A stretch of DNA of 64,000 nucleotides. Source: Escherichia phage VerenaGrendelmeier_Bas101. Below the pieces are notes generated by a model. That model was given only the letters and a program-made list of their open reading frames with translations. It was not told where the DNA came from and did no database searches. The stretch lies in sequence record PQ850631.1, one strand, 5' to 3'. How positions within the stretch are numbered: position 1 is the stretch's first letter; every line of letters begins with the position of its first letter. The position numbers and the translations under genes were made by a program. Shown here in pieces: positions 26,934 through 39,742 of the stretch.

Positions 26934-27794
26934 TTAAAACTCTTCTGCGTCGGTCGGAGTTTCATTGACAGGACCAGCGGCACCGCTTGCTTCTTCCTGC
27001 TTGCTGCGGTCAATGTTAACGTTGCCGCCAACTACGTCATTGTGGAATGCCTTGGCGACTTCGTACAGACCTTTATCCTGCACCAGACCTTCCAGCTCAA
27101 ACTTAAGAACTGACCAGGTGTTGCCGTCTTTGGACTGAGATGCAGTGCCCATGCGAACAATGTTCATAAAGGTCGGCGGCGTTTTCAGACCCTGCGGAGT
27201 CTGAACTTTCTTCTGCTGCAGAGCGGTCATCAGCATGCGAGACGGCTTGATCATGGAAGAAGTCAGAGACAGCATTGCGCTACCAAATTCACCAGTTTCT
27301 TCGTTCAACAGAATTACGAAGTGGTTGCGTGTATCTGCGTAGTAAGGCGATTTCTTCTCGTGCACCTTGCCGTTTTCGTCCGGCACGAATACCTTACCGT
27401 TGATCTCAACAGCGCGGCCTGCCGCGACTTCTGCATCAACGTGCTCTTTGGTGAATTCACCTTTAAAGCCTTTATCATCGGACTCGCGACCGCCCCAAAG
27501 GATGAAGGTGCGTTTGAATGCGCAAGGGATGATCTGCACGCCTTTCTTGCCGTCATACAACTCACCAGTAACGGTGTTGTAAAGCATGCCAGCTTTTGCG
27601 CCAGGAACGTGTTTTGGATCATCTTCGTCGACCATAGGAGACATCTTCTGCAGTACGACGATAAAAGGAATGGCATACGCATCGGCATCGGCACCTTCAA
27701 AACCAGCGCCAAAATCGGTCATGTCGACAAAATCAGCCATAGCGGACATCTGGGTGTTTTTCACTGCAACTTCGGTGGTTTCTTTCTTAGACAT
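26934..27794 (-). CDS. putative single-stranded DNA-binding protein (acidic C-terminal tail ending in Phe)
   Basis: 286 aa; C-terminus ...NETPTDAEEF resembles the T7 gp2.5-type acidic tail with terminal aromatic residue. Confidence 0.4.
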   Translation of the reverse strand: MSKKETTEVAVKNTQMSAMADFVDMTDFGAGFEGADADAYAIPFIVVLQKMSPMVDEDDPKHVPGAKAGMLYNTVTGELYDGKKGVQIIPCAFKRTFILWGGRESDDKGFKGEFTKEHVDAEVAAGRAVEINGKVFVPDENGKVHEKKSPYYADTRNHFVILLNEETGEFGSAMLSLTSSMIKPSRMLMTALQQKKVQTPQGLKTPPTFMNIVRMGTASQSKDGNTWSVLKFELEGLVQDKGLYEVAKAFHNDVVGGNVNIDRSKQEEASGAAGPVNETPTDAEEF

Positions 27795-27853
27795 TTGATA
27801 TTTTCCTATAGTATCAAGTTTCGTGGCAACCTGATTTCAAGATAAAGGTTAAA

Positions 27854-28411
27854 TTACTTTTTGCTTTTAGGCAAGGTTATTTTAGCTTCTTTGTATTCAA
27901 AAACGCTAATATCTTCACTAACTGGATTGCCCGCTTCCAGCTGTTCTTTTACAAACGACTTCAGTGTAGCAGAATGAACGCCTTGTTTCAACGTGGCTTC
28001 AACACCATCTTCACGCAGTGCGGCAACAATCTCTTGCGCCTGTTCGATTTCTTCGCGACCGAACTCAGCCGTGACGCTGGACTTGATCAAGCCGCCGTAA
28101 CCGTTGTTGACAAGCCAATCGAAAACTTTTAATTCGTTTTCTTTCTTGATTGAAGCATTCACCTTGGACTCGACTTTGATTTTGGTCTTGTCCTCAAGCT
28201 TGATTTCAGACACACCAAGCTCATCCATTACGCCAGGAAGCAGAACAGTTTTGATTTCACTGATGCGCTGCTTTTGCATATCAGCTTCATCTTCAAGCTC
28301 TGTCAAAGCTTCTTGGCGTTCTGCCAGTTCAGATACTAAGCGCGCAAGGCGCTCTTGAATGCTCTCAGGAGCGACCTGCGGCAAATCATCTTCCCAATTA
28401 ATATTGCTCAT
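27854..28411 (-). CDS. hypothetical protein with N-terminal coiled coil
   Basis: 185 aa, acidic, coiled-coil N-terminus. Confidence 0.4.
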   Translation of the reverse strand: MSNINWEDDLPQVAPESIQERLARLVSELAERQEALTELEDEADMQKQRISEIKTVLLPGVMDELGVSEIKLEDKTKIKVESKVNASIKKENELKVFDWLVNNGYGGLIKSSVTAEFGREEIEQAQEIVAALREDGVEATLKQGVHSATLKSFVKEQLEAGNPVSEDISVFEYKEAKITLPKSKK

Positions 28412-34170: not shown

Positions 34171-34722
34171 TTATACAGTGTACGGAGTACCGTCTTGATT
34201 CAACCGCACGATGAACTTAAGGTCAACACCAATGATTTCACGCGTATCAAAGATCACATAGTTGTAACGACGCTGACCAGCAATGTTTGGGTTGGTGTGA
34301 GAGTCGGTCACAACTTCCTGTGCAACCTGAATGCCTTCTTCGCTAAAGAACTTACGCCATTCAGCAAGTTCAGCGGCAGTCACGTGCATGCCAAGGTGGC
34401 TGACCTGATTGTCATGCGCATCGATATATTCGATGTTTTCGTTAATCCAGTTGCAGCCCATTGTGTAGTCAAGGATTTCAAGCTCAAGAGGCTTACCAGC
34501 GCCGCCATCAGTACCGTTGCCAGCCTGATAGTTGAAGCGCAAGTCAGCTTCATTGGTACAATCGTCGCGACGACCTTTAAAGTCATCAGCTTCAAATACG
34601 CGACCAGTAGCAACAACATGATCATGGAACCATTCTGTCAGGCCGATTTTAGCCAAGAAATCCTGTGCGCGCTGAGCATCTGGAATTGACAGGGCGATTT
34701 GTTCAATTTTAAAATGTGGCAT
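34171..34722 (-). CDS. VOC (glyoxalase/bleomycin-resistance)-like protein
   Basis: 183 aa; N-terminal HFKIEQIALSIPDAQRAQDFLAKIGL resembles VOC beta-alpha-beta modules. Confidence 0.3.
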   Translation of the reverse strand: MPHFKIEQIALSIPDAQRAQDFLAKIGLTEWFHDHVVATGRVFEADDFKGRRDDCTNEADLRFNYQAGNGTDGGAGKPLELEILDYTMGCNWINENIEYIDAHDNQVSHLGMHVTAAELAEWRKFFSEEGIQVAQEVVTDSHTNPNIAGQRRYNYVIFDTREIIGVDLKFIVRLNQDGTPYTV

Positions 34723-34818
34723 TTTGTTTCCTTAATTAAATATTATTGATTAATTACTGTGTTGTCTTCGTCCTGTTTCTTTTCAGGAGCGGGTGTGACA
34801 ACTTCAAATGTTCGTGAT

Positions 34819-35502
34819 TTATTTACCGAATGGAATATCAGTACCAGACATAAAGCGCCATGCGCCCGTAATTAAGATATGGCGAATGAAGTCAGCAATT
34901 ACTTGCGGCTCAGTCTCCAATCCGTTCATCAATGCCTTTTTCTGGTATTCAGCAGCATACTCAGGAGTCCAGCCGCGAGTCGCGCAAACAGCATCTTCAA
35001 TCTGTTTGGACATGCCAGTACCACGTAGCTTGTTAGGACTAATAGAAAATACCGTGATCCCGTATTTAGGCGTAAGCTCGTGAGCCATCTGCTTGCTAAT
35101 CATAAGCGCAGCGGCCTTGGAAGCATTATAACACAAGCTGGACGTCATAGGAATATGCGCAGCGTTGGAAACGATATTGATCACAAAACCTTTGTTGTCG
35201 ATAAGACTTTTCAGCGCGGCTTGAGTCGTGTTGACGAAAGAGAAGGCGTTGGTGTGCATAACGCGATTGAACTCTTCGTAGTTAACATCTTCAAACCAGT
35301 TGTTGGAGTTGACGCCAGCACAGTTGATCAAGCCTTCTACATCATATGGGCTTAAAATTTCTTTCATCTGTTTCGCGTCGCGGACGTCATATCCGTATGC
35401 TGAATCGATTCCAAGCACGTTATGACCGTAAGCGCCAAGGGTGTCAAAAATAGATTTACCAAGACCGGAATTGGAACCTGTTACAACAATTACTTTTTTC
35501 AT
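34819..35502 (-). CDS. short-chain dehydrogenase/reductase (SDR)
   Basis: Cofactor motif VTGSNSGLGKS and catalytic YNASK. Confidence 0.7.
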   Translation of the reverse strand: MKKVIVVTGSNSGLGKSIFDTLGAYGHNVLGIDSAYGYDVRDAKQMKEILSPYDVEGLINCAGVNSNNWFEDVNYEEFNRVMHTNAFSFVNTTQAALKSLIDNKGFVINIVSNAAHIPMTSSLCYNASKAAALMISKQMAHELTPKYGITVFSISPNKLRGTGMSKQIEDAVCATRGWTPEYAAEYQKKALMNGLETEPQVIADFIRHILITGAWRFMSGTDIPFGK

Positions 35503-35567: not shown

Positions 35568-36440
35568 CTATTTATTGAAATTAATATTGTGGGTGTTGAC
35601 GAGACGTTCACACATGGCGCTGTAAACACCATCATCGTGTATAGAGTCTTCGTGCTTCAGGCCGCTGATTGCAAAGCGTGTAAGCTTGACAATCTTAAGC
35701 TCGAACAGATGCCACATGTGGTAGTCTTCCGGCGTTTTCAACGTTACGCCATTAGGGAAAAGCACCTGCATAACCTGGCCTACCATCACAGCGTTATCGC
35801 CATAGACAGCGTTACGCTCACGGAAAGTCGCGGCCATCGCATCAAGAATATCGGCGGCGGTTGCCGGAGATTGTTTGATTTCCACTGCTTTAGTCTCTTC
35901 TTGCCCCGTTGCGCTTGGATCAACTGCTAATCGTTGCACTACTTCACCTGCCTTGCAAAGATTAAATGTAAAAGCGATTTTATTTTGAGCAACGGAATTA
36001 TAATCCATAGCTTCTTTACGCATCGCCGCGAGTACGTCTTGTCTGTCGTCAAACACATTAATGATTCGATAATCGCCGTGACGCAATGCGTAATATAGCC
36101 ATTCAGACTTCATAATAGTTGATGGACGTTTGTCGCCATAGTCTCTCATCTTGATTGTAAATTCATCAAAAGGGAAAACATTGTCCAGACGTTCAAAAGT
36201 CACTTGTCTGTATTTTTCTGGCCTTGCAGTCCAATATTCAACCGCCTCACCGCGAAGAGATGCCGACTCTACTGCTGATGCAATGTGAGGATAGAACTGA
36301 TCATAACCAATACCGCTGTAATAATCATCATAGTCTGACAACGGACCTGCCACCTTGATGCGGTCTAAGCGCCAACGGTCATCAAACAGCGTTCCGTCAA
36401 GGTCGAATACGTTTAAAATTTCGCTGTTTTTAATGCTCAT
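35568..36440 (-). CDS. HAD-family phosphatase fused to a C-terminal domain of unknown function
   Basis: Motif I FDLDGTLFDD, later NVFDDRQDV; ~140-aa C-terminal extension. Confidence 0.55.
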   Translation of the reverse strand: MSIKNSEILNVFDLDGTLFDDRWRLDRIKVAGPLSDYDDYYSGIGYDQFYPHIASAVESASLRGEAVEYWTARPEKYRQVTFERLDNVFPFDEFTIKMRDYGDKRPSTIMKSEWLYYALRHGDYRIINVFDDRQDVLAAMRKEAMDYNSVAQNKIAFTFNLCKAGEVVQRLAVDPSATGQEETKAVEIKQSPATAADILDAMAATFRERNAVYGDNAVMVGQVMQVLFPNGVTLKTPEDYHMWHLFELKIVKLTRFAISGLKHEDSIHDDGVYSAMCERLVNTHNINFNK

Positions 36441-37240
36441 CCTTTTGATACTCCATCTTTAGCAACTGGATTGTTGGTGATTGGCATCGCACTCCAAAAC
36501 TGGATGCGTAACTCTTCTTGCTGTGCCGTGGTATCCATCCAATCACGATACCAAGGGCAATGGGCTTTGCCATGACGAGGAAACGCGCATTTACCCATAC
36601 CGATGCATTGCGGCTGTAATAATGGATTTGCCCACGGGTGCACCTTGAGGACTTCCGCAACCATTGCTCGGAATACTTCTTGATACTCGCCTTGTGTGCG
36701 CGTGCACAAGCGGTTGGAAGCCATCTGTTGCAGCGTTCGCAAGTTGAACTTTGCCATGATATGCGTTTGCATATTAGAAGGCAACACGGCACGTGCATCT
36801 TGAATCTCTGCGCCAGCCGCGCGAAGCTCTTGATACAAAGCATCGATAGTCGCCATCGCATCATCCCACTTCTCTGCCAGTTCAGCGGCCTTCTCGTCAT
36901 GACGAGTCCATCCCTTTGGATCATCCTCTGGGTAAGTAAACTTAGCAGGGCGAATCGCATCAAATGCAGACGACTCCTGAGCGCGGCTGGTGCGTTCTTG
37001 ATATGCGCCTGTGCGTGTGCGCACCATCTGATGGGTCATATTCTTTGATACATCAGTGATGTCAAAGATATAGTCCACAAAGTCAAAAGGCGACTTGATT
37101 GTATCAAGCATGTAGCGCCAGTGCTCTTGCTTCTCTGATTCTGTCATCTCAGAGACTGGCTTACCAGTCATGCGCGTGTTCTTTGTTTCCAGCAAAAGGT
37201 CAAGTGCATCTTGGGTGTATCGAATTAATTCAACTTTCAT
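36437..37240 (-). CDS. thyX: ThyX-like flavin-dependent thymidylate synthase (variant RTR motif, C-terminal Cys/His extension)
   Basis: RTRTGAYQERTSR aligns with the ThyX RHR-X7-8-S motif; ARAVLPSNMQTHIMAKFNLRTLQQM aligns with the ThyX LP/N.R.L block; extra C-terminus QCIGMGKCAFPRHGKAHC. Confidence 0.55.
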   Translation of the reverse strand: MKVELIRYTQDALDLLLETKNTRMTGKPVSEMTESEKQEHWRYMLDTIKSPFDFVDYIFDITDVSKNMTHQMVRTRTGAYQERTSRAQESSAFDAIRPAKFTYPEDDPKGWTRHDEKAAELAEKWDDAMATIDALYQELRAAGAEIQDARAVLPSNMQTHIMAKFNLRTLQQMASNRLCTRTQGEYQEVFRAMVAEVLKVHPWANPLLQPQCIGMGKCAFPRHGKAHCPWYRDWMDTTAQQEELRIQFWSAMPITNNPVAKDGVSKG

Positions 37241-37253
37241 TTTAATTATCCTA

Positions 37254-37700
37254 TTAACGGTAATTCACTAGTTGCTGATCACCAGAGAAGGTGCAATGAT
37301 AAACGAATTGTGCGTTATAAAGCAACTGAAAACTTTTCTTTGGTTCATTATTAGAACTCATTGATGTAAAGATTTCTGCACCAGAACGGTTTTCACCAAT
37401 CAGGTTAATAAAGCCGCCAGTTGAACGAGGCTGAACGAAAGTGAAACGCTGCATCCACGGAGTCCGGTTGGCACCTTTTCCGGTGAATCCCTGAATCTGA
37501 ATATTCAGACCTTCTTGCTCGTTCACACCGATGTAAGTGGTAATTGTTGCGCCAGTCGTCGCTGCGGTCTTGCCGTCCATCGCTTCGCAATCGTAAACAG
37601 CGATTGAATCGGAAGTACGGACAGCGGCTTCAGTCGCTTCCATATACATGGTTCCGAGAATAGCAGTCGCGGCAAGCGCGATTCCAGTGATGCGTTTCAT
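37254..37700 (-). CDS. secreted protein with signal peptide, unknown function
   Basis: MKRITGIALAATAILGTMYMEATEAA signal-like N-terminus; two Cys. Confidence 0.5.
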   Translation of the reverse strand: MKRITGIALAATAILGTMYMEATEAAVRTSDSIAVYDCEAMDGKTAATTGATITTYIGVNEQEGLNIQIQGFTGKGANRTPWMQRFTFVQPRSTGGFINLIGENRSGAEIFTSMSSNNEPKKSFQLLYNAQFVYHCTFSGDQQLVNYR

Positions 37701-37765: not shown

Positions 37766-38761
37766 TTATTTATTAGCAATATAAGCAAATTTTTGATAGT
37801 TATTTGCTTTGATGAGTTTTTCAACTTCAGCAAGGTCATGAGCGACGTCATCAAGCAAAATGTTTCGCCAAGTAGCGAATCGACCGACACTGAATACGTT
37901 CAAATCCATAGTCAACTGGAGCAGTAAGGCGTGGCGCAAGTCTTTCGGAATGTCGACAATTTTGCCATACTTCTGGTCAACCTTTTCAACTTCTTCCAAA
38001 GAGATGTCATTCCATGAAAGACCAAAAGCGGTAAGAACTTCATCCACTTCTGCACGCAGCTTCATGTCGCGATAACGTGTAATGCCGCCAGCGGCTTCAA
38101 CTGCTGCCGCGCTGACGCTTACCAATGGAATTGTTTCAATGATCAGCGTGTCACCAGTGATTGATGCGCGGTAAGTCCTTACAGAATAGTCAGGGAAGTA
38201 AATTGTTTGATACAACTCACACTTGCGCTTAATCTTAAAACGATAAACGCGAATATTTGCCTTATCAAACGAGAAGTCGAGCTTTTGATCAATACCAGCA
38301 AGCTTCATCATGACTGGCAGCGGCGATGTGTTGATGATTGGCGTCTCGCTATAGCCGCAAAGCGTGTCGACCGGAGTATTAAAGAATATACGGTCACCCA
38401 GTTTATCGACAAGTTGATCATAAAAGTCATCCGGCGCTATGTAGCGCGTAGCAGTTTGAAGCTTCATGATTGAGCGGCTGCCAAACTGGTTGGTGACTTT
38501 CATAGAGTACATATTGGCAAGGTTGATTGGGCAATGGTCGTGATAGTAGTTACCGCGAAAATACACGGCCTTGTCAACTGTCACTGCCTTAAAAGGGATT
38601 CCGGTAATACGGCTTACTTCTTCGCCGCGAAAGCGTAGCAGCGCCTTGTGCTGTGGCGCTCGCTCCCCTGCTTCGTACACAATAGAGTTCGGGAAGTGAC
38701 ACGCGGTAATAAGTCCTGCCAAACCGCCGCCGATAATCATTACAGGTTGTTTCATGTTCAT
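37766..38761 (-). CDS. FAD/NAD(P)-binding flavoprotein, UDP-galactopyranose mutase-like
   Basis: Rossmann motif IIGGGLAGL then acidic residue; C-terminal VGRFATWRNILLDDVAHD resembles the Glf-type C-terminus. Confidence 0.4.
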   Translation of the reverse strand: MNMKQPVMIIGGGLAGLITACHFPNSIVYEAGERAPQHKALLRFRGEEVSRITGIPFKAVTVDKAVYFRGNYYHDHCPINLANMYSMKVTNQFGSRSIMKLQTATRYIAPDDFYDQLVDKLGDRIFFNTPVDTLCGYSETPIINTSPLPVMMKLAGIDQKLDFSFDKANIRVYRFKIKRKCELYQTIYFPDYSVRTYRASITGDTLIIETIPLVSVSAAAVEAAGGITRYRDMKLRAEVDEVLTAFGLSWNDISLEEVEKVDQKYGKIVDIPKDLRHALLLQLTMDLNVFSVGRFATWRNILLDDVAHDLAEVEKLIKANNYQKFAYIANK

Positions 38762-38896: not shown

Positions 38897-39742
38897 TTAT
38901 TCCGCTTGATCACCGTCTTCAGCATCGTCGTTGGATTCAACATCGACAAACTCGATGTGGCCCATCTCTTCCAGCTTGCTCAGGTAGGAGCGAACGGAAG
39001 CGCCAAACAGTTGATCTTTAACTTTCTCGCCCAGCTCATCGATAGACTGTGCCACGCCAACTTCGCCTTCTTTGATCGCAGCCAGAACGCGTCCACGGGT
39101 GGAATGCTCTTGCGGCTGGCTCAGGCCATTACCAGTGTAGATGAAGTGAGTAGCTTTTGCACGACGCTGACCGTTTGCCTTTTTAGCAGCCTTACGTTCT
39201 GCGATGGCTTTGCGACGTTCTTCAGCTTCTTTCTTACGCTGTTCTTTCTGCTGTTCTGCAGCTTCTTTCGCCGCAATCTTAGCAGCTTCACGCTCTGCCT
39301 TGCGTTTCGCTTTAGCTTCTTCTTTGGCCTTCTCTTTTTCGGCCTTCGCTGCAGCACGGGCTTGATCACGCTCTGCTTTCTTAGCAGCAGCTTGTTCAGC
39401 TTTCAGGCGCTTGGCTTCTTCTTTAGCCTTTGCCTTTTCGATTTCTTTCGCTGCTTTAGCGGCTTCACGCTCTGCTTTCTTAGCAGCGGCCTTTTCTGCA
39501 CGCTCTTTAGCTTTCTTGGCTGCTTCTTCAGCACGCTTCTGAGCCTTCTCATCAGCAGCCTGCTTGCGTTTCAGCGCAGCTTCTTCACGCTTGGCTTGTT
39601 TTTCCTGCTCACGCTTCTGGCGTTTTTCTTCGGCTTCTTTCTTTTTAGCCAGGCGTTTTTCTTCAGCCACGCGACGACGTTCTGCTGCAGCTGCTTGTTT
39701 TTCTTCTTTAGATAATACTTTGATTGCTTCGGCCATGTTCAC
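38897..39742 (-). CDS. Lys/Glu/Ala-rich protein (long predicted single alpha-helix) with small C-terminal globular domain
   Basis: About 200 aa of KEEKQAAAAERRRVAEEKRLAKKKEAEEKR-type low complexity, then an ~80-aa C-terminal domain. Confidence 0.5.
   Translation of the reverse strand: MNMAEAIKVLSKEEKQAAAAERRRVAEEKRLAKKKEAEEKRQKREQEKQAKREEAALKRKQAADEKAQKRAEEAAKKAKERAEKAAAKKAEREAAKAAKEIEKAKAKEEAKRLKAEQAAAKKAERDQARAAAKAEKEKAKEEAKAKRKAEREAAKIAAKEAAEQQKEQRKKEAEERRKAIAERKAAKKANGQRRAKATHFIYTGNGLSQPQEHSTRGRVLAAIKEGEVGVAQSIDELGEKVKDQLFGASVRSYLSKLEEMGHIEFVDVESNDDAEDGDQAE

What the first reader, a model, noticed from the sequence alone, without database searches (positions are those of the whole stretch)
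36437..37240. ThyX-like protein with RTR in place of the RHR signature and a Cys/His-rich C-terminal extension
The protein aligns with the ThyX core (xRxRx7-8S block and the AR.VLP.N...N.R.L block), but the signature reads RTRTGAYQERTS, not RHR..., and there is an extra ~60-aa C-terminus with QCIGMGKC...HGKAHC. Substitution in the signature plus a possible metal-binding tail suggests altered substrate or chemistry, such as a different pyrimidine C5 modification.
Basis: partly seen in the sequence, partly recalled or inferred. Interest (0 to 1): 0.6.

Follow-up and report, generated by a model that had tools for sequence, protein, structure and literature searches.

The report
Variant phage ThyX with partner flavoprotein
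A phage gene annotated as flavin-dependent thymidylate synthase lacks three hallmark active-site residues, has a conserved four-cysteine site, and always sits beside a second flavoprotein and a phosphatase; related phages carry a sugar-modified thymine whose biosynthesis is unknown, so this may be a partner-dependent thymidylate synthase or the entry enzyme for that modification.

Summary
Window 36437-37240 (-) encodes a 267-aa ThyX-fold protein (Pfam Thy1, E=1e-30) with RTR in place of RHR and a ~60-aa Cys-containing tail. The window is a Wifcevirus (E. coli myovirus), a distant relative of Pseudomonas PB1-like phages.

- RTR/RNR/RQR/RSR variants occur in about half of the 150 nearest family representatives.
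- The tail plus Cys179 forms an all-or-none four-cysteine motif. Canonical housekeeping bacterial ThyX also have it. The tail histidines are not conserved.

What sets this subtype apart is loss of T. maritima His53 (to Phe) and of the "strictly conserved" Tyr91 (to Ala). It also always co-occurs, usually adjacent, with a UDP-galactopyranose-mutase/protoporphyrinogen-oxidase-like flavoprotein (37766-38761) and a HAD phosphatase (35568-36440). This holds across about 360 phage genomes of several lineages and is not seen with canonical ThyX.

Pbunavirus relatives carrying the same three genes were recently shown to have hypermodified thymidine at TG sites, with no biosynthetic genes named. Wifceviruses resist most restriction systems for unknown reasons.

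Best guess: a partner-dependent thymidylate synthase (~0.45). Rival: a non-dTMP C5 product that feeds hypermodification (~0.33). No biochemistry exists.

The parts
36437..37240 (-). ThyX-fold protein, 267 aa (variant subtype: Phe54, Thr75, Ala87; four Cys)
   Evidence: ORF. Pfam Thy1 E=1.2e-30. TIGR02170 scores 83.1 bits, below its 87.9 cut-off. AF2 model pLDDT 90.4. Foldseek finds ThyX structures only, TM 0.73-0.75 on the target.
36983..37021 (-). Signature block R74-T75-R76...T84-S85-R86 (canonical RHRx7S-G-R); the next codon, 36980-36982, is Ala87 (T. maritima Tyr91)
   Evidence: Alignment to T. maritima ThyX. R74, T75, R76, R86 and A87 are invariant in 97 relatives. Codons read.
37079..37081 (-). 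Phe54, at the position of T. maritima His53 (the folate/flavin-stacking histidine)
   Evidence: Invariant in 97 relatives. Role of His53 from PMC11940539.
36704..36706 (-). Cys179, the first of four co-occurring cysteines, two residues after Arg177 (= T. maritima Arg174)
   Evidence: Invariant. In the 150 nearest representatives the four Cys are all present (81) or all absent, with 2 partial cases among full-length sequences.
36440..36628 (-). C-terminal extension (aa ~205-267) carrying Cys212 (36605-36607), Cys218 (36587-36589) and Cys228 (36557-36559), in the pattern C-x5-C-x9-C
   Evidence: pLDDT is 94-96 over aa 200-250. No solved ThyX contains this motif.
37766..38761 (-). Partner flavoprotein, 331 aa, N-terminal GxGxxG; UDP-galactopyranose mutase / protoporphyrinogen oxidase / amine oxidase fold
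35568..36440 (-). HAD (PNKP-type) phosphatase with a conserved ~100-aa C-terminal domain; its start codon overlaps the ThyX stop
   Evidence: Pfam HAD_PNKP E=7.6e-10. The C-terminal domain occurs in 363 phage records from the same taxa. Present next to the variant ThyX in LMA2, F8, 14-1, L003 and RHph_TM61.
34171..35502 (-). Wifcevirus-specific insert between the HAD and exonuclease genes: an SDR/FabG-like reductase (34819-35502) and a weak VOC/glyoxalase-like protein (34171-34722). Whether they belong to the module is not shown.
   Evidence: Pfam adh_short E=2.6e-31 and Glyoxalase_4 E=0.004. Absent at this position in Pbunavirus LMA2 and F8.

Best explanation
The ORF encodes an active, strongly constrained enzyme of the ThyX (flavin-dependent thymidylate synthase) fold.

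Shown. It keeps the residues that in T. maritima ThyX hold FAD and the phosphate and uracil ring of dUMP: Gln75, Arg78, Arg80, Glu86, Arg90, Arg147, Asn163, Arg165 and Arg174 correspond to Q71, R74, R76, E82, R86, R150, N166, R168 and R177.

Inferred. It still binds FAD and dUMP and delivers a one-carbon unit to C5. My best single guess is that the product is dTMP, supplying thymidylate for a phage genome that is more AT-rich than its host.

It belongs to a distinct subtype.
- The folate/flavin-stacking His53 is Phe, the middle His of RHR is Thr, and the proposed general acid Tyr91 is Ala. These replacements are themselves invariant in the clade.
- This subtype, and not canonical ThyX, always comes with a UGM/protoporphyrinogen-oxidase-like flavoprotein and a HAD phosphatase.
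- I infer that the flavoprotein is a functional partner. It may supply electrons or the one-carbon unit, or finish the reaction, so compensating for the lost His53-Tyr91 gating and acid function.

The C-terminal tail together with Cys179 forms a four-cysteine site, either structural Zn or an Fe-S cluster (inferred, not tested). It ties the loop after the catalytic Arg177 to the tail. This site is inherited from a large ThyX subfamily that includes housekeeping bacterial enzymes, so it is not what makes this protein special.
For: - Family and fold.
- Conserved substrate and cofactor residues, and invariance of F54, T75 and A87 in 97 relatives down to about 57% identity.
- Inteins interrupt some homologues, as they do in essential nucleotide and DNA enzymes.
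- The four Cys are all-or-none (81 representatives with all four, 2 partial among full-length sequences).
- The four Cys also occur in canonical H/RHR/Y enzymes from Chloroflexi, WOR-3, Bacteroidetes and other MAGs, and in a bacterial chromosome next to L31, RF-1 and PrmC.
- Partner co-occurrence: 361 and 363 phage records from the same taxa (Pseudomonas 292, Escherichia 26, Serratia 9 in all three searches); none of the Gordonia, Mycobacterium, Clostridium, Bacillus, Streptomyces or Sulfolobus groups that carry ThyX hits appears among the taxa listed for the partner.
- The partner lies within about 2 kb of the ThyX gene in Pbunavirus, a Vibrio podophage, Rhizobium jumbo phages and four metagenomic contigs. 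It is absent from two canonical-ThyX contexts.
- There is no ThyA homologue in the window.
- There is none in the whole 203-kb RHph_TM61 genome, which encodes RNR, dUTPase and dCMP deaminase, so the variant is the only thymidylate-synthase-family gene there.
- Window GC is 46.2% and the LMA2 locus 55.8%. Both are below their hosts (own knowledge).
Against: - No member of this subtype has been assayed. The thymidylate synthase label rests on homology alone.
- Tyr91 is described as strictly conserved, and its mutation slows the methylation half-reaction about 1000-fold (PMC11940539). The S88 position is also relaxed (S, T or A) across the subtype.
- The protein scores below NCBIfam's thyX equivalog cut-off.
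- No ThyX is known to need a protein partner.
- Pbunaviruses with the same three genes have about a quarter of their thymidines hypermodified, with no biosynthetic genes identified.
- Wifceviruses resist EcoRI and EcoRV despite 38 and 10 site counts.
Confidence: 0.45

Rival explanations
1. The variant ThyX does not end at dTMP. With its flavoprotein and HAD partners it makes the C5-functionalised deoxyuridylate that PB1-like phages need for their sugar-type thymidine hypermodification. This could be 5-hydroxymethyl-dUMP, formed when water rather than flavin hydride captures the exocyclic-methylene intermediate. It could also be an alkoxymethyl adduct, or arise by flavin-dependent oxidation of the thymine methyl. 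Wifcevirus DNA would then be hypermodified too.
For: - Pbunavirus F8 and 14-1 replace about a quarter of T, in TG context, with nucleosides of mass 362 and 390 (PMC12191111).
- By my arithmetic these masses equal 5-hmdU + tetritol - H2O and 5-hmdU + pentose - H2O.
- 26.6-26.9% of T lie in TG in F8, 14-1 and LMA2, and 26.4% in this window.
- Both phages carry the three genes.
- Known thymidine hypermodifications start from 5-hmdUMP made by a ThyA-family enzyme (PMC8989533). No ThyA homologue is present in the window.
- The residues lost (Tyr91, His53) are those assigned to carbinolamine breakdown and flavin/folate gating.
- The HAD gene and its small neighbours are the most divergent genes (78-82%, against 94-99% elsewhere) between F8 and 14-1, which differ in the appended sugar.
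- Native Nanopore sequencing fails on Pbunavirus.
- No paper in the library names the biosynthetic genes.
Against: - About three quarters of Pbunavirus T is ordinary thymidine, and the modification is site-specific (TG). This needs post-replicative, DNA-level enzymes, and no kinase, aGPT-Pplase or glycosyltransferase was found here.
- The same three genes occur in many other phages not known to be modified.
- In RHph_TM61 the variant is the only candidate thymidylate synthase beside RNR, dUTPase and dCMP deaminase.
- Wifcevirus resists EcoRI and EcoRV, whose sites lack TG, whereas F8 is cut by EcoRI. The Pbunavirus pattern does not transfer directly.
- There is no direct evidence that Wifcevirus DNA is modified.
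Confidence: 0.33
2. It is an ordinary, self-sufficient ThyX that makes dTMP with NADPH and CH2-THF. The substitutions are neutral lineage drift, the Cys site is a structural zinc, and the neighbouring flavoprotein and phosphatase are unrelated replication-module genes.
For: - Pfam and PHROG assignments.
- Conserved Arg, Gln and Asn set.
- Phe can stack on a pterin as His does (inference).
- The gene sits among replication genes: DNA polymerase, exonuclease, helicases and ligase.
Against: - The partner is kept within about 2 kb of the gene in at least five distantly related phage backgrounds, including 40-kb podophages and 200-kb jumbo phages. It is absent from all canonical-ThyX contexts examined.
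- The replacements F54, T75 and A87 are invariant rather than drifting.
- The Tyr91 mutation costs about 1000-fold in the canonical enzyme.
Confidence: 0.12
3. It acts on a different nucleotide, as PolB methylates UMP in polyoxin biosynthesis. Candidates are dCMP, UMP, or a base within DNA.
For: - ThyX-fold enzymes with other substrates exist (PolB; own knowledge, PDB 4p5a appears).
- Loss of Tyr91 from the active-site loop that closes over dUMP could open the site (speculation).
Against: - Arg177 (T. maritima Arg174) and Gln71, which read the uracil ring, and the phosphate-binding Arg86, Arg150 and Thr84/Ser85 are conserved.
- In RHph_TM61 the gene lies beside the dUMP-producing dUTPase, and a dCMP deaminase is encoded elsewhere in the genome.
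Confidence: 0.05
4. It is an inactive ThyX relic kept for a structural or regulatory role.
For: Three hallmark residues are missing, and the score is below the equivalog cut-off.
Against: The remaining active-site residues and the replacement residues themselves are invariant across hundreds of phages. Inteins target the gene in relatives.
Confidence: 0.02

Closest known systems
Canonical flavin-dependent thymidylate synthase ThyX (T. maritima TM0449, M. tuberculosis Rv2754c, PBCV-1 A674R)
   Same: - Same fold (Foldseek TM 0.73-0.75 on the target) and a full-length Pfam Thy1 match.
- The same Arg, Gln and Asn residues for FAD and dUMP.
- A phage or cellular nucleotide-metabolism context.
   Different: - Only 17-22% identity.
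- His53 to Phe, His79 to Thr, Tyr91 to Ala, Ser88 to Thr, His178 to Arg.
- An added ~60-aa tail with a four-Cys motif.
- Below the TIGR02170 cut-off.
- Obligate genomic association with a second flavoprotein and a HAD phosphatase.
Four-cysteine ThyX subfamily of bacteria and archaea (e.g. P0265 from NCBI assembly GCA_964455935.1; MAG proteins named FAD-dependent thymidylate synthase from Chloroflexi, WOR-3 and Methanobacteriota)
   Same: The same R-x-C ... C-x5-C-x(5-11)-C arrangement, with the first Cys two residues after the catalytic Arg and the others in a short C-terminal tail.
   Different: - These proteins keep His53, RHR, Ser88 and Tyr91.
- The two contexts examined (a bacterial chromosome, and a phage-like contig with FolD-like and dNMP kinase genes) have no partner flavoprotein.
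- No member has a solved structure, and I found no paper describing the site.
ThyA-family dUMP hydroxymethyltransferases of phages with 5-hmdU-derived hypermodified thymidine (SPO1, M6, ViI, PhiW-14)
   Same: A possible functional analogue: a thymidylate-synthase homologue diverted to make the precursor of modified thymidine. The relatives (Pbunavirus) do carry hypermodified T.
   Different: An unrelated fold and cofactor logic (a flavin relay rather than a Cys nucleophile). No activity has been shown. None of the known downstream genes (5-hmdU DNA kinase, aGPT-Pplase) was detected here.
UDP-galactopyranose mutase / protoporphyrinogen oxidase / flavin amine oxidase superfamily (for the 331-aa partner)
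   Different: - Only 10-17% identity.
- 100-170 residues shorter than most matches.
- No Pfam family.
- Substrate unknown.

Membership tests
ThyX / Thy1 (flavin-dependent thymidylate synthase) superfamily | Sequence match to the Thy1 domain above Pfam's gathering score | tested here: met
   PF02511 scores 107.1 bits against a cut-off of 24.8, covering profile positions 2-191 of 191.
ThyX / Thy1 superfamily | ThyX fold | tested here: met
   The AF2 model (pLDDT 90.4) matches only ThyX structures at the top (E about 1e-10, TM 0.73-0.75 on the target).
ThyX equivalog (NCBIfam TIGR02170, same function) | Score at or above the curated equivalog cut-off | tested here: not met
   83.1 bits against a cut-off of 87.9.
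Canonical ThyX | ThyX signature RHRx7-8S | tested here: not met
   The sequence reads RTRTGAYQERTS. Thr75 is invariant in 97 relatives.
Canonical ThyX | His53 (stacks on the folate pterin and on reduced flavin) and Tyr91 ('strictly conserved' proposed general acid), T. maritima numbering | tested here: not met
   Phe54 and Ala87, both invariant in the clade. Roles from PMC11940539.
Canonical ThyX | Residues binding the dUMP phosphate and uracil and the FAD (Gln75, Arg78, Arg80, Glu86, Arg90, Arg147, Asn163, Arg165, Arg174) | tested here: met
   All are present as Q71, R74, R76, E82, R86, R150, N166, R168 and R177.
Canonical ThyX | Catalyses dUMP + CH2-THF + NADPH -> dTMP; complements thyA | not testable with these tools
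   I found no assay of any member of this subtype in the literature searched.
Four-cysteine ThyX subfamily (defined here) | Cys two residues after the catalytic Arg, plus a C-x5-C-x(5-11)-C tail, all four co-occurring | tested here: met
   C179, C212, C218 and C228 are invariant. The pattern is all-or-none in 150 representatives.
Four-cysteine ThyX subfamily | The four Cys form one metal site (Zn or Fe-S) | not testable with these tools
Only co-occurrence and high pLDDT of the tail support it.
Thymidine-hypermodification pathway (5-hmdU route of Lee et al.) | Phage-encoded ThyA-family dUMP hydroxymethyltransferase | tested here: not met
   tblastn with E. coli ThyA against the window gives a best E of 0.47.
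Thymidine-hypermodification pathway | 5-hmdU DNA kinase, aGPT-Pplase, or a glycosyltransferase | tested here: inconclusive
   No such Pfam hit among 36 window ORFs scanned. Many small ORFs were not scanned, and divergent enzymes could be missed.
Thymidine-hypermodification pathway | Non-canonical thymidine in virion DNA | not testable with these tools
   Shown for Pbunavirus F8 and 14-1. For Wifcevirus there is only indirect RM-resistance data.

The most novel reading that the evidence does not exclude
The variant ThyX, together with its UGM/PPO-like flavoprotein and HAD phosphatase, is the missing biosynthetic entry point of the sugar-type thymidine hypermodification recently found in PB1-like phages. 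It would be a ThyX-fold, flavin-dependent enzyme whose product is a 5-hydroxymethyl- or alkoxymethyl-deoxyuridylate (or that oxidises the thymine methyl) rather than dTMP. Wifcevirus genomes would then be hypermodified as well, which would explain their unexplained restriction resistance. The four-Cys site would be a redox Fe-S cluster that keeps the flavin in the required state.
Probability: 0.33. Interest if true: 0.85.

Novelty: new variant of a known kind. Interest (0 to 1): 0.65.

Why it matters
This gene is annotated simply as "thymidylate synthase" in hundreds of phage genomes, including the Pbunaviruses that are among the Pseudomonas phages most used in therapy. If the analysis here is right, three things follow.

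1. There is a large ThyX subtype that lacks residues considered essential (His53, Tyr91). It apparently depends on a second flavoprotein, which would change the accepted picture of how flavin-dependent thymidylate synthases work.

2. A widespread four-cysteine, probably metal-binding, ThyX subfamily has no structure and no description, even though ThyX is an antibiotic target. The subfamily includes housekeeping bacterial enzymes.

3. The three-gene module is the most obvious unexplored candidate for the origin of the hypermodified thymidine reported in Pbunavirus in 2025, whose genes are unknown. It could also explain the restriction resistance of Wifcevirus. That question can now be tested directly with three knock-outs and one enzyme assay.

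Tried and rejected
- **Tail histidines as ligands:** rejected. H223 and H227 vary (Y, W, K, R, Q) within close relatives.
- **RTR as the distinguishing feature:** rejected. The partner flavoprotein and the loss of His53 and Tyr91 also occur with RHR (P0134, P0148, P0179) and with RNR (Vibrio and Rhizobium phages).
- **The four-Cys tail as a marker of new chemistry:** rejected. It occurs in canonical housekeeping ThyX.
- **Fusion partners in long homologues:** uninformative. They are inteins or N-terminal extensions without Pfam domains.
- **AlphaFold-database fold search:** the library was unavailable.
- **Cys-Cys distances:** model coordinates are not exposed, so they could not be measured.
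- **C-terminal domain of the HAD protein:** no Pfam hit and no PDB sequence hit. Its identity remains unknown.
- **ThyA in the window and in the whole RHph_TM61 genome:** none found.
- **Other modification enzymes in the window:** none recognised.
- **Literature on an Fe-S or Zn ThyX, or on ThyX in hypermodification:** nothing relevant.
- **EcoCFT_II recognition sequence:** I tried to obtain it, to test whether TG-containing sites explain the Wifcevirus restriction pattern. It is given only in a figure that is not held. EcoRI and EcoRV resistance despite TG-free sites already argues against a simple TG-only model for Wifcevirus.
- **First attempt at listing of cluster members:** failed because of queueing and was repeated successfully.
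Full report
**1. What is there**

Window 36437-37240 (minus strand) is a 267-aa ORF with a good ribosome-binding site. Its stop codon overlaps the start of the downstream gene by 4 nt.
- It matches Pfam Thy1/ThyX over the whole profile (E=1.2e-30).
- It matches PHROG 85 "thymidylate synthase".
- It scores 83.1 bits against NCBIfam's thyX equivalog model, below the 87.9 cut-off.
- The only solved relatives are ThyX enzymes, at E about 1e-4 by sequence.
- An AlphaFold model built on 97 homologues (pLDDT 90.4, pTM 0.84) matches ThyX structures only, with TM 0.73-0.75 on the target and 17-22% identity.

The window itself is a Wifcevirus. It is about 95% identical at the nucleotide level to E. coli phages SP13, F13, WFC and Bas98-100. 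Orthologues of the protein (49% identity, full length) are found in all PB1-like Pseudomonas phages (292 records).

**2. Checking the observation**

The alignment to T. maritima ThyX confirms RTR in place of RHR and a tail of about 60 aa.
- His53 is Phe54.
- Tyr91 is Ala87.
- Ser88 is Thr84, followed by Ser85.
- His178 is Arg181.

Everything that holds the dUMP phosphate, the uracil ring and FAD is retained: Gln75, Arg78, Arg80, Glu86, Arg90, Arg147, Asn163, Arg165 and Arg174.

In 97 relatives down to about 57% identity, F54, T75, A87 and all of these Arg, Gln and Asn residues are invariant. The active site is therefore under purifying selection and is not decaying. In the tail, the conserved residues are C212, C218 and C228. 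The two histidines of "HGKAHC" are not conserved. A fourth invariant cysteine, C179, lies two residues after Arg177.

**3. How unusual are RTR and the Cys tail?**

A full HMMER scan of 1.84 billion representatives gave 1625 relatives. I aligned the best 150.
- The four cysteines are all present in 81 sequences. Otherwise they are all absent, with 2 partial cases among full-length sequences.
- The middle residue of RxR is T, H, Q, S or N in the four-Cys group. It is mostly T in a no-Cys group of about 250 aa.
- So RTR-type signatures are common in this radiation and independent of the tail.

A subset of four-Cys proteins has a fully canonical H...RHR...SQRY active site. Searching with one of them (P0265) returned at least 8000 relatives. 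The top 120 are all RHR and are named FAD-dependent thymidylate synthase, from Chloroflexi, WOR-3, Bacteroidetes, Zixibacteria, Armatimonadota and a Methanobacteriota MAG, on contigs up to 201 kb. The 82 caught by a pattern search, and all 12 tails then read by eye, carry R-[LT]-C...K-C-x2-L-G-Y-C-x-E-x3-C. P0265 itself lies in a bacterial chromosome between ribosomal protein L31 and RF-1/PrmC.

The four-Cys site is therefore an old subfamily feature of bona fide housekeeping ThyX. No solved ThyX has it, and I found no paper describing it. Whether it binds Zn or an Fe-S cluster cannot be decided here.

**4. What does distinguish this protein**

Across the representatives, His53 and Tyr91 are kept together or lost together (H with Y, F with a non-Tyr residue). 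That agrees with the 2025 structural work on T. maritima ThyX (PMC11940539):
- His53 stacks on the folate pterin or on reduced flavin.
- His53 hydrogen-bonds Tyr91.
- Tyr91 and Ser88 are "strictly conserved".
- Tyr91 mutation slows flavin oxidation in the methylation reaction about 1000-fold.

Homologues of the partner lie within about 2 kb of the variant ThyX, directly upstream or separated by a few small ORFs, in all of these:
- Pbunavirus LMA2, F8 and 14-1 (39% identity).
- A Vibrio podophage of 40 kb (35.5%).
- Rhizobium jumbo phages (34%).
- Four metagenomic contigs. Two of these have ThyX proteins that keep RHR.

Two canonical His53/Tyr91 contexts lack the partner.

In the phage collection, the flavoprotein occurs in 361 records and the C-terminal domain of the downstream HAD phosphatase in 363. 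The taxon counts match those of the variant ThyX: Pseudomonas 292, Escherichia 26 and Serratia 9 in all three searches, and Rhizobium 8, 9 and 10. The Gordonia, Mycobacterium, Clostridium, Bacillus, Streptomyces and Sulfolobus groups, which account for most of the remaining ThyX hits, do not appear among the taxa listed for either partner.

The unit is therefore a three-gene module: flavoprotein, variant ThyX, and HAD phosphatase with its C-terminal domain. In Wifcevirus an SDR and a weak VOC-like gene are inserted next to it.

**5. Link to DNA modification in relatives**

Several independent reports bear on this.
- Yee et al. (bioRxiv 2025, PMC12191111) showed that Pbunavirus F8 and 14-1 carry a hypermodified thymidine. 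It replaces about a quarter of T, in TG context. The nucleoside masses are 362 ("erythrose/threose sugar alcohol derivative") and 390 ("circularized aldopentose derivative").
- That paper names no biosynthetic genes and never mentions ThyX.
- No later paper in the library identifies the pathway.
[quoted passage not shown] This is despite 38 EcoRI, 10 EcoRV and 87 EcoCFT_II site counts in Bas100.

My own arithmetic and counts:
- 5-hmdU (258) + tetritol (122) - 18 = 362.
- 5-hmdU (258) + pentose (150) - 18 = 390.
- 26.6-26.9% of T are in TG in the F8, 14-1 and LMA2 loci, and 26.4% in this window.

All known thymidine hypermodifications start from 5-hmdUMP made by a ThyA-family enzyme (PMC8989533). 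There is no ThyA homologue in this window, which covers almost the whole genome.

Between F8 and 14-1, which differ in the appended sugar, the HAD gene and its small neighbours are the most divergent genes in the region. They are 78-82% identical, against 94-99% for polymerase, exonuclease, helicase, ThyX and the flavoprotein.

**6. Weighing the readings**

For a plain dTMP-forming role:
- The substrate and cofactor residues are intact.
- The phage genomes are more AT-rich than their hosts.
- I read the complete 203-kb genome of Rhizobium phage RHph_TM61. It encodes RNR, dUTPase, dCMP deaminase, a 5'-nucleotidase and DHFR. The variant ThyX is its only thymidylate-synthase-family gene.

Against a canonical mechanism:
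- The His53-Tyr91 pair is lost.
- The Ser88 position is relaxed.
- The enzyme has an obligate flavoprotein neighbour.

For a non-dTMP product:
- The hypermodified thymidine in Pbunavirus has no known biosynthetic genes.
- Wifcevirus has an unexplained restriction-resistance phenotype.

Against a non-dTMP product:
- Three quarters of Pbunavirus T is ordinary, and the modification is site-specific. This needs DNA-level enzymes that I did not find.
- Wifcevirus resists EcoRI and EcoRV, whose sites have no TG, while F8 is cut by EcoRI.

My estimates are:
- Partner-dependent thymidylate synthase: about 0.45.
- Hypermodification-precursor enzyme: about 0.33.
- Ordinary stand-alone ThyX: 0.12.
- Other substrates: 0.05.
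- Inactive relic: 0.02.

**7. Verdict**

The protein is a new variant of a known kind. It lacks His53, His79 and Tyr91, carries the four-Cys site, and is tied to a partner flavoprotein. It sits in a conserved module that is the obvious candidate to test for the unexplained thymidine hypermodification of PB1-like phages. Nothing here is biochemical, and every functional statement beyond fold, residue conservation and gene co-occurrence is inference.

Noticed in passing
[not shown]
   Followed up: yes
window 35568-36440 (-); F8 gp57 and 14-1 ORF57 (L008 7772-8836, L009 8114-9130): A HAD (PNKP-type) phosphatase with a conserved C-terminal domain of about 100 aa and unknown identity. It is translationally coupled to the ThyX-like gene. 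It is only about 80% identical between Pbunavirus F8 and 14-1, where neighbouring replication genes are 94-99% identical, and those two phages differ in the sugar attached to their modified thymidine.
   Followed up: partly
window 34171-35502 (-): An SDR/FabG-like reductase and a weak VOC/glyoxalase-like protein are inserted between the HAD and exonuclease genes in Wifcevirus. They are absent at this position in Pbunavirus. They could tailor a modification, or they could be unrelated morons.
   Followed up: partly
window 37254-37700 (-): A 148-aa protein with an N-terminal signal-peptide-like segment lies between the ThyX-like and flavoprotein genes. It has no Pfam or PHROG hit and no counterpart in Pbunavirus, where five small ORFs occupy this space.
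   Followed up: no
window 38897-39742 (-), with a mirror ORF at 38906-39715 (+): A 281-aa Lys/Ala/Glu-rich low-complexity protein, annotated 'TolA' in some records, with a conserved C-terminal part (53% identity to F8 gp66). The long antisense ORF is probably a composition artefact.
   Followed up: no
homologues P0158, P0167, P0267: Inteins interrupt some four-Cys ThyX homologues just before the RxR region (Thy1 profile positions about 65-71).
   Followed up: no
whole window: There is no XbaI site (TCTAGA) in 64 kb, although roughly 18 would be expected from base composition. The TA dinucleotide is at 0.70 of expectation, and TG/CA at 1.14.
   Followed up: no
window 26934-28411 (-); L003 2248-4053: Pam3 gp34-like (PF23977) and Pam3 gp33-like (DUF7307) genes lie in the replication module here and in F8. 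In metagenomic contig L003 they sit immediately upstream of the flavoprotein-ThyX-HAD module. Their function is unknown.
   Followed up: no
Rhizobium phage RHph_TM61, MN988561.1 608-1123 (L015): This phage encodes a dihydrofolate reductase but no ThyA. Its only thymidylate-synthase-family gene is the variant ThyX. Canonical ThyX releases THF, not DHF (own knowledge), so the DHFR is unexpected. It might hint at different folate chemistry.
   Followed up: partly
BASEL S2 table for Bas98-100 vs window: Wifceviruses are highly sensitive to EcoP1_I (AGACC; 82-90 sites). They resist EcoCFT_II (87-93 sites), EcoRI (36-38) and EcoRV (6-10). This pattern is unexplained, and a TG-only thymidine modification would not account for it.
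   Followed up: partly
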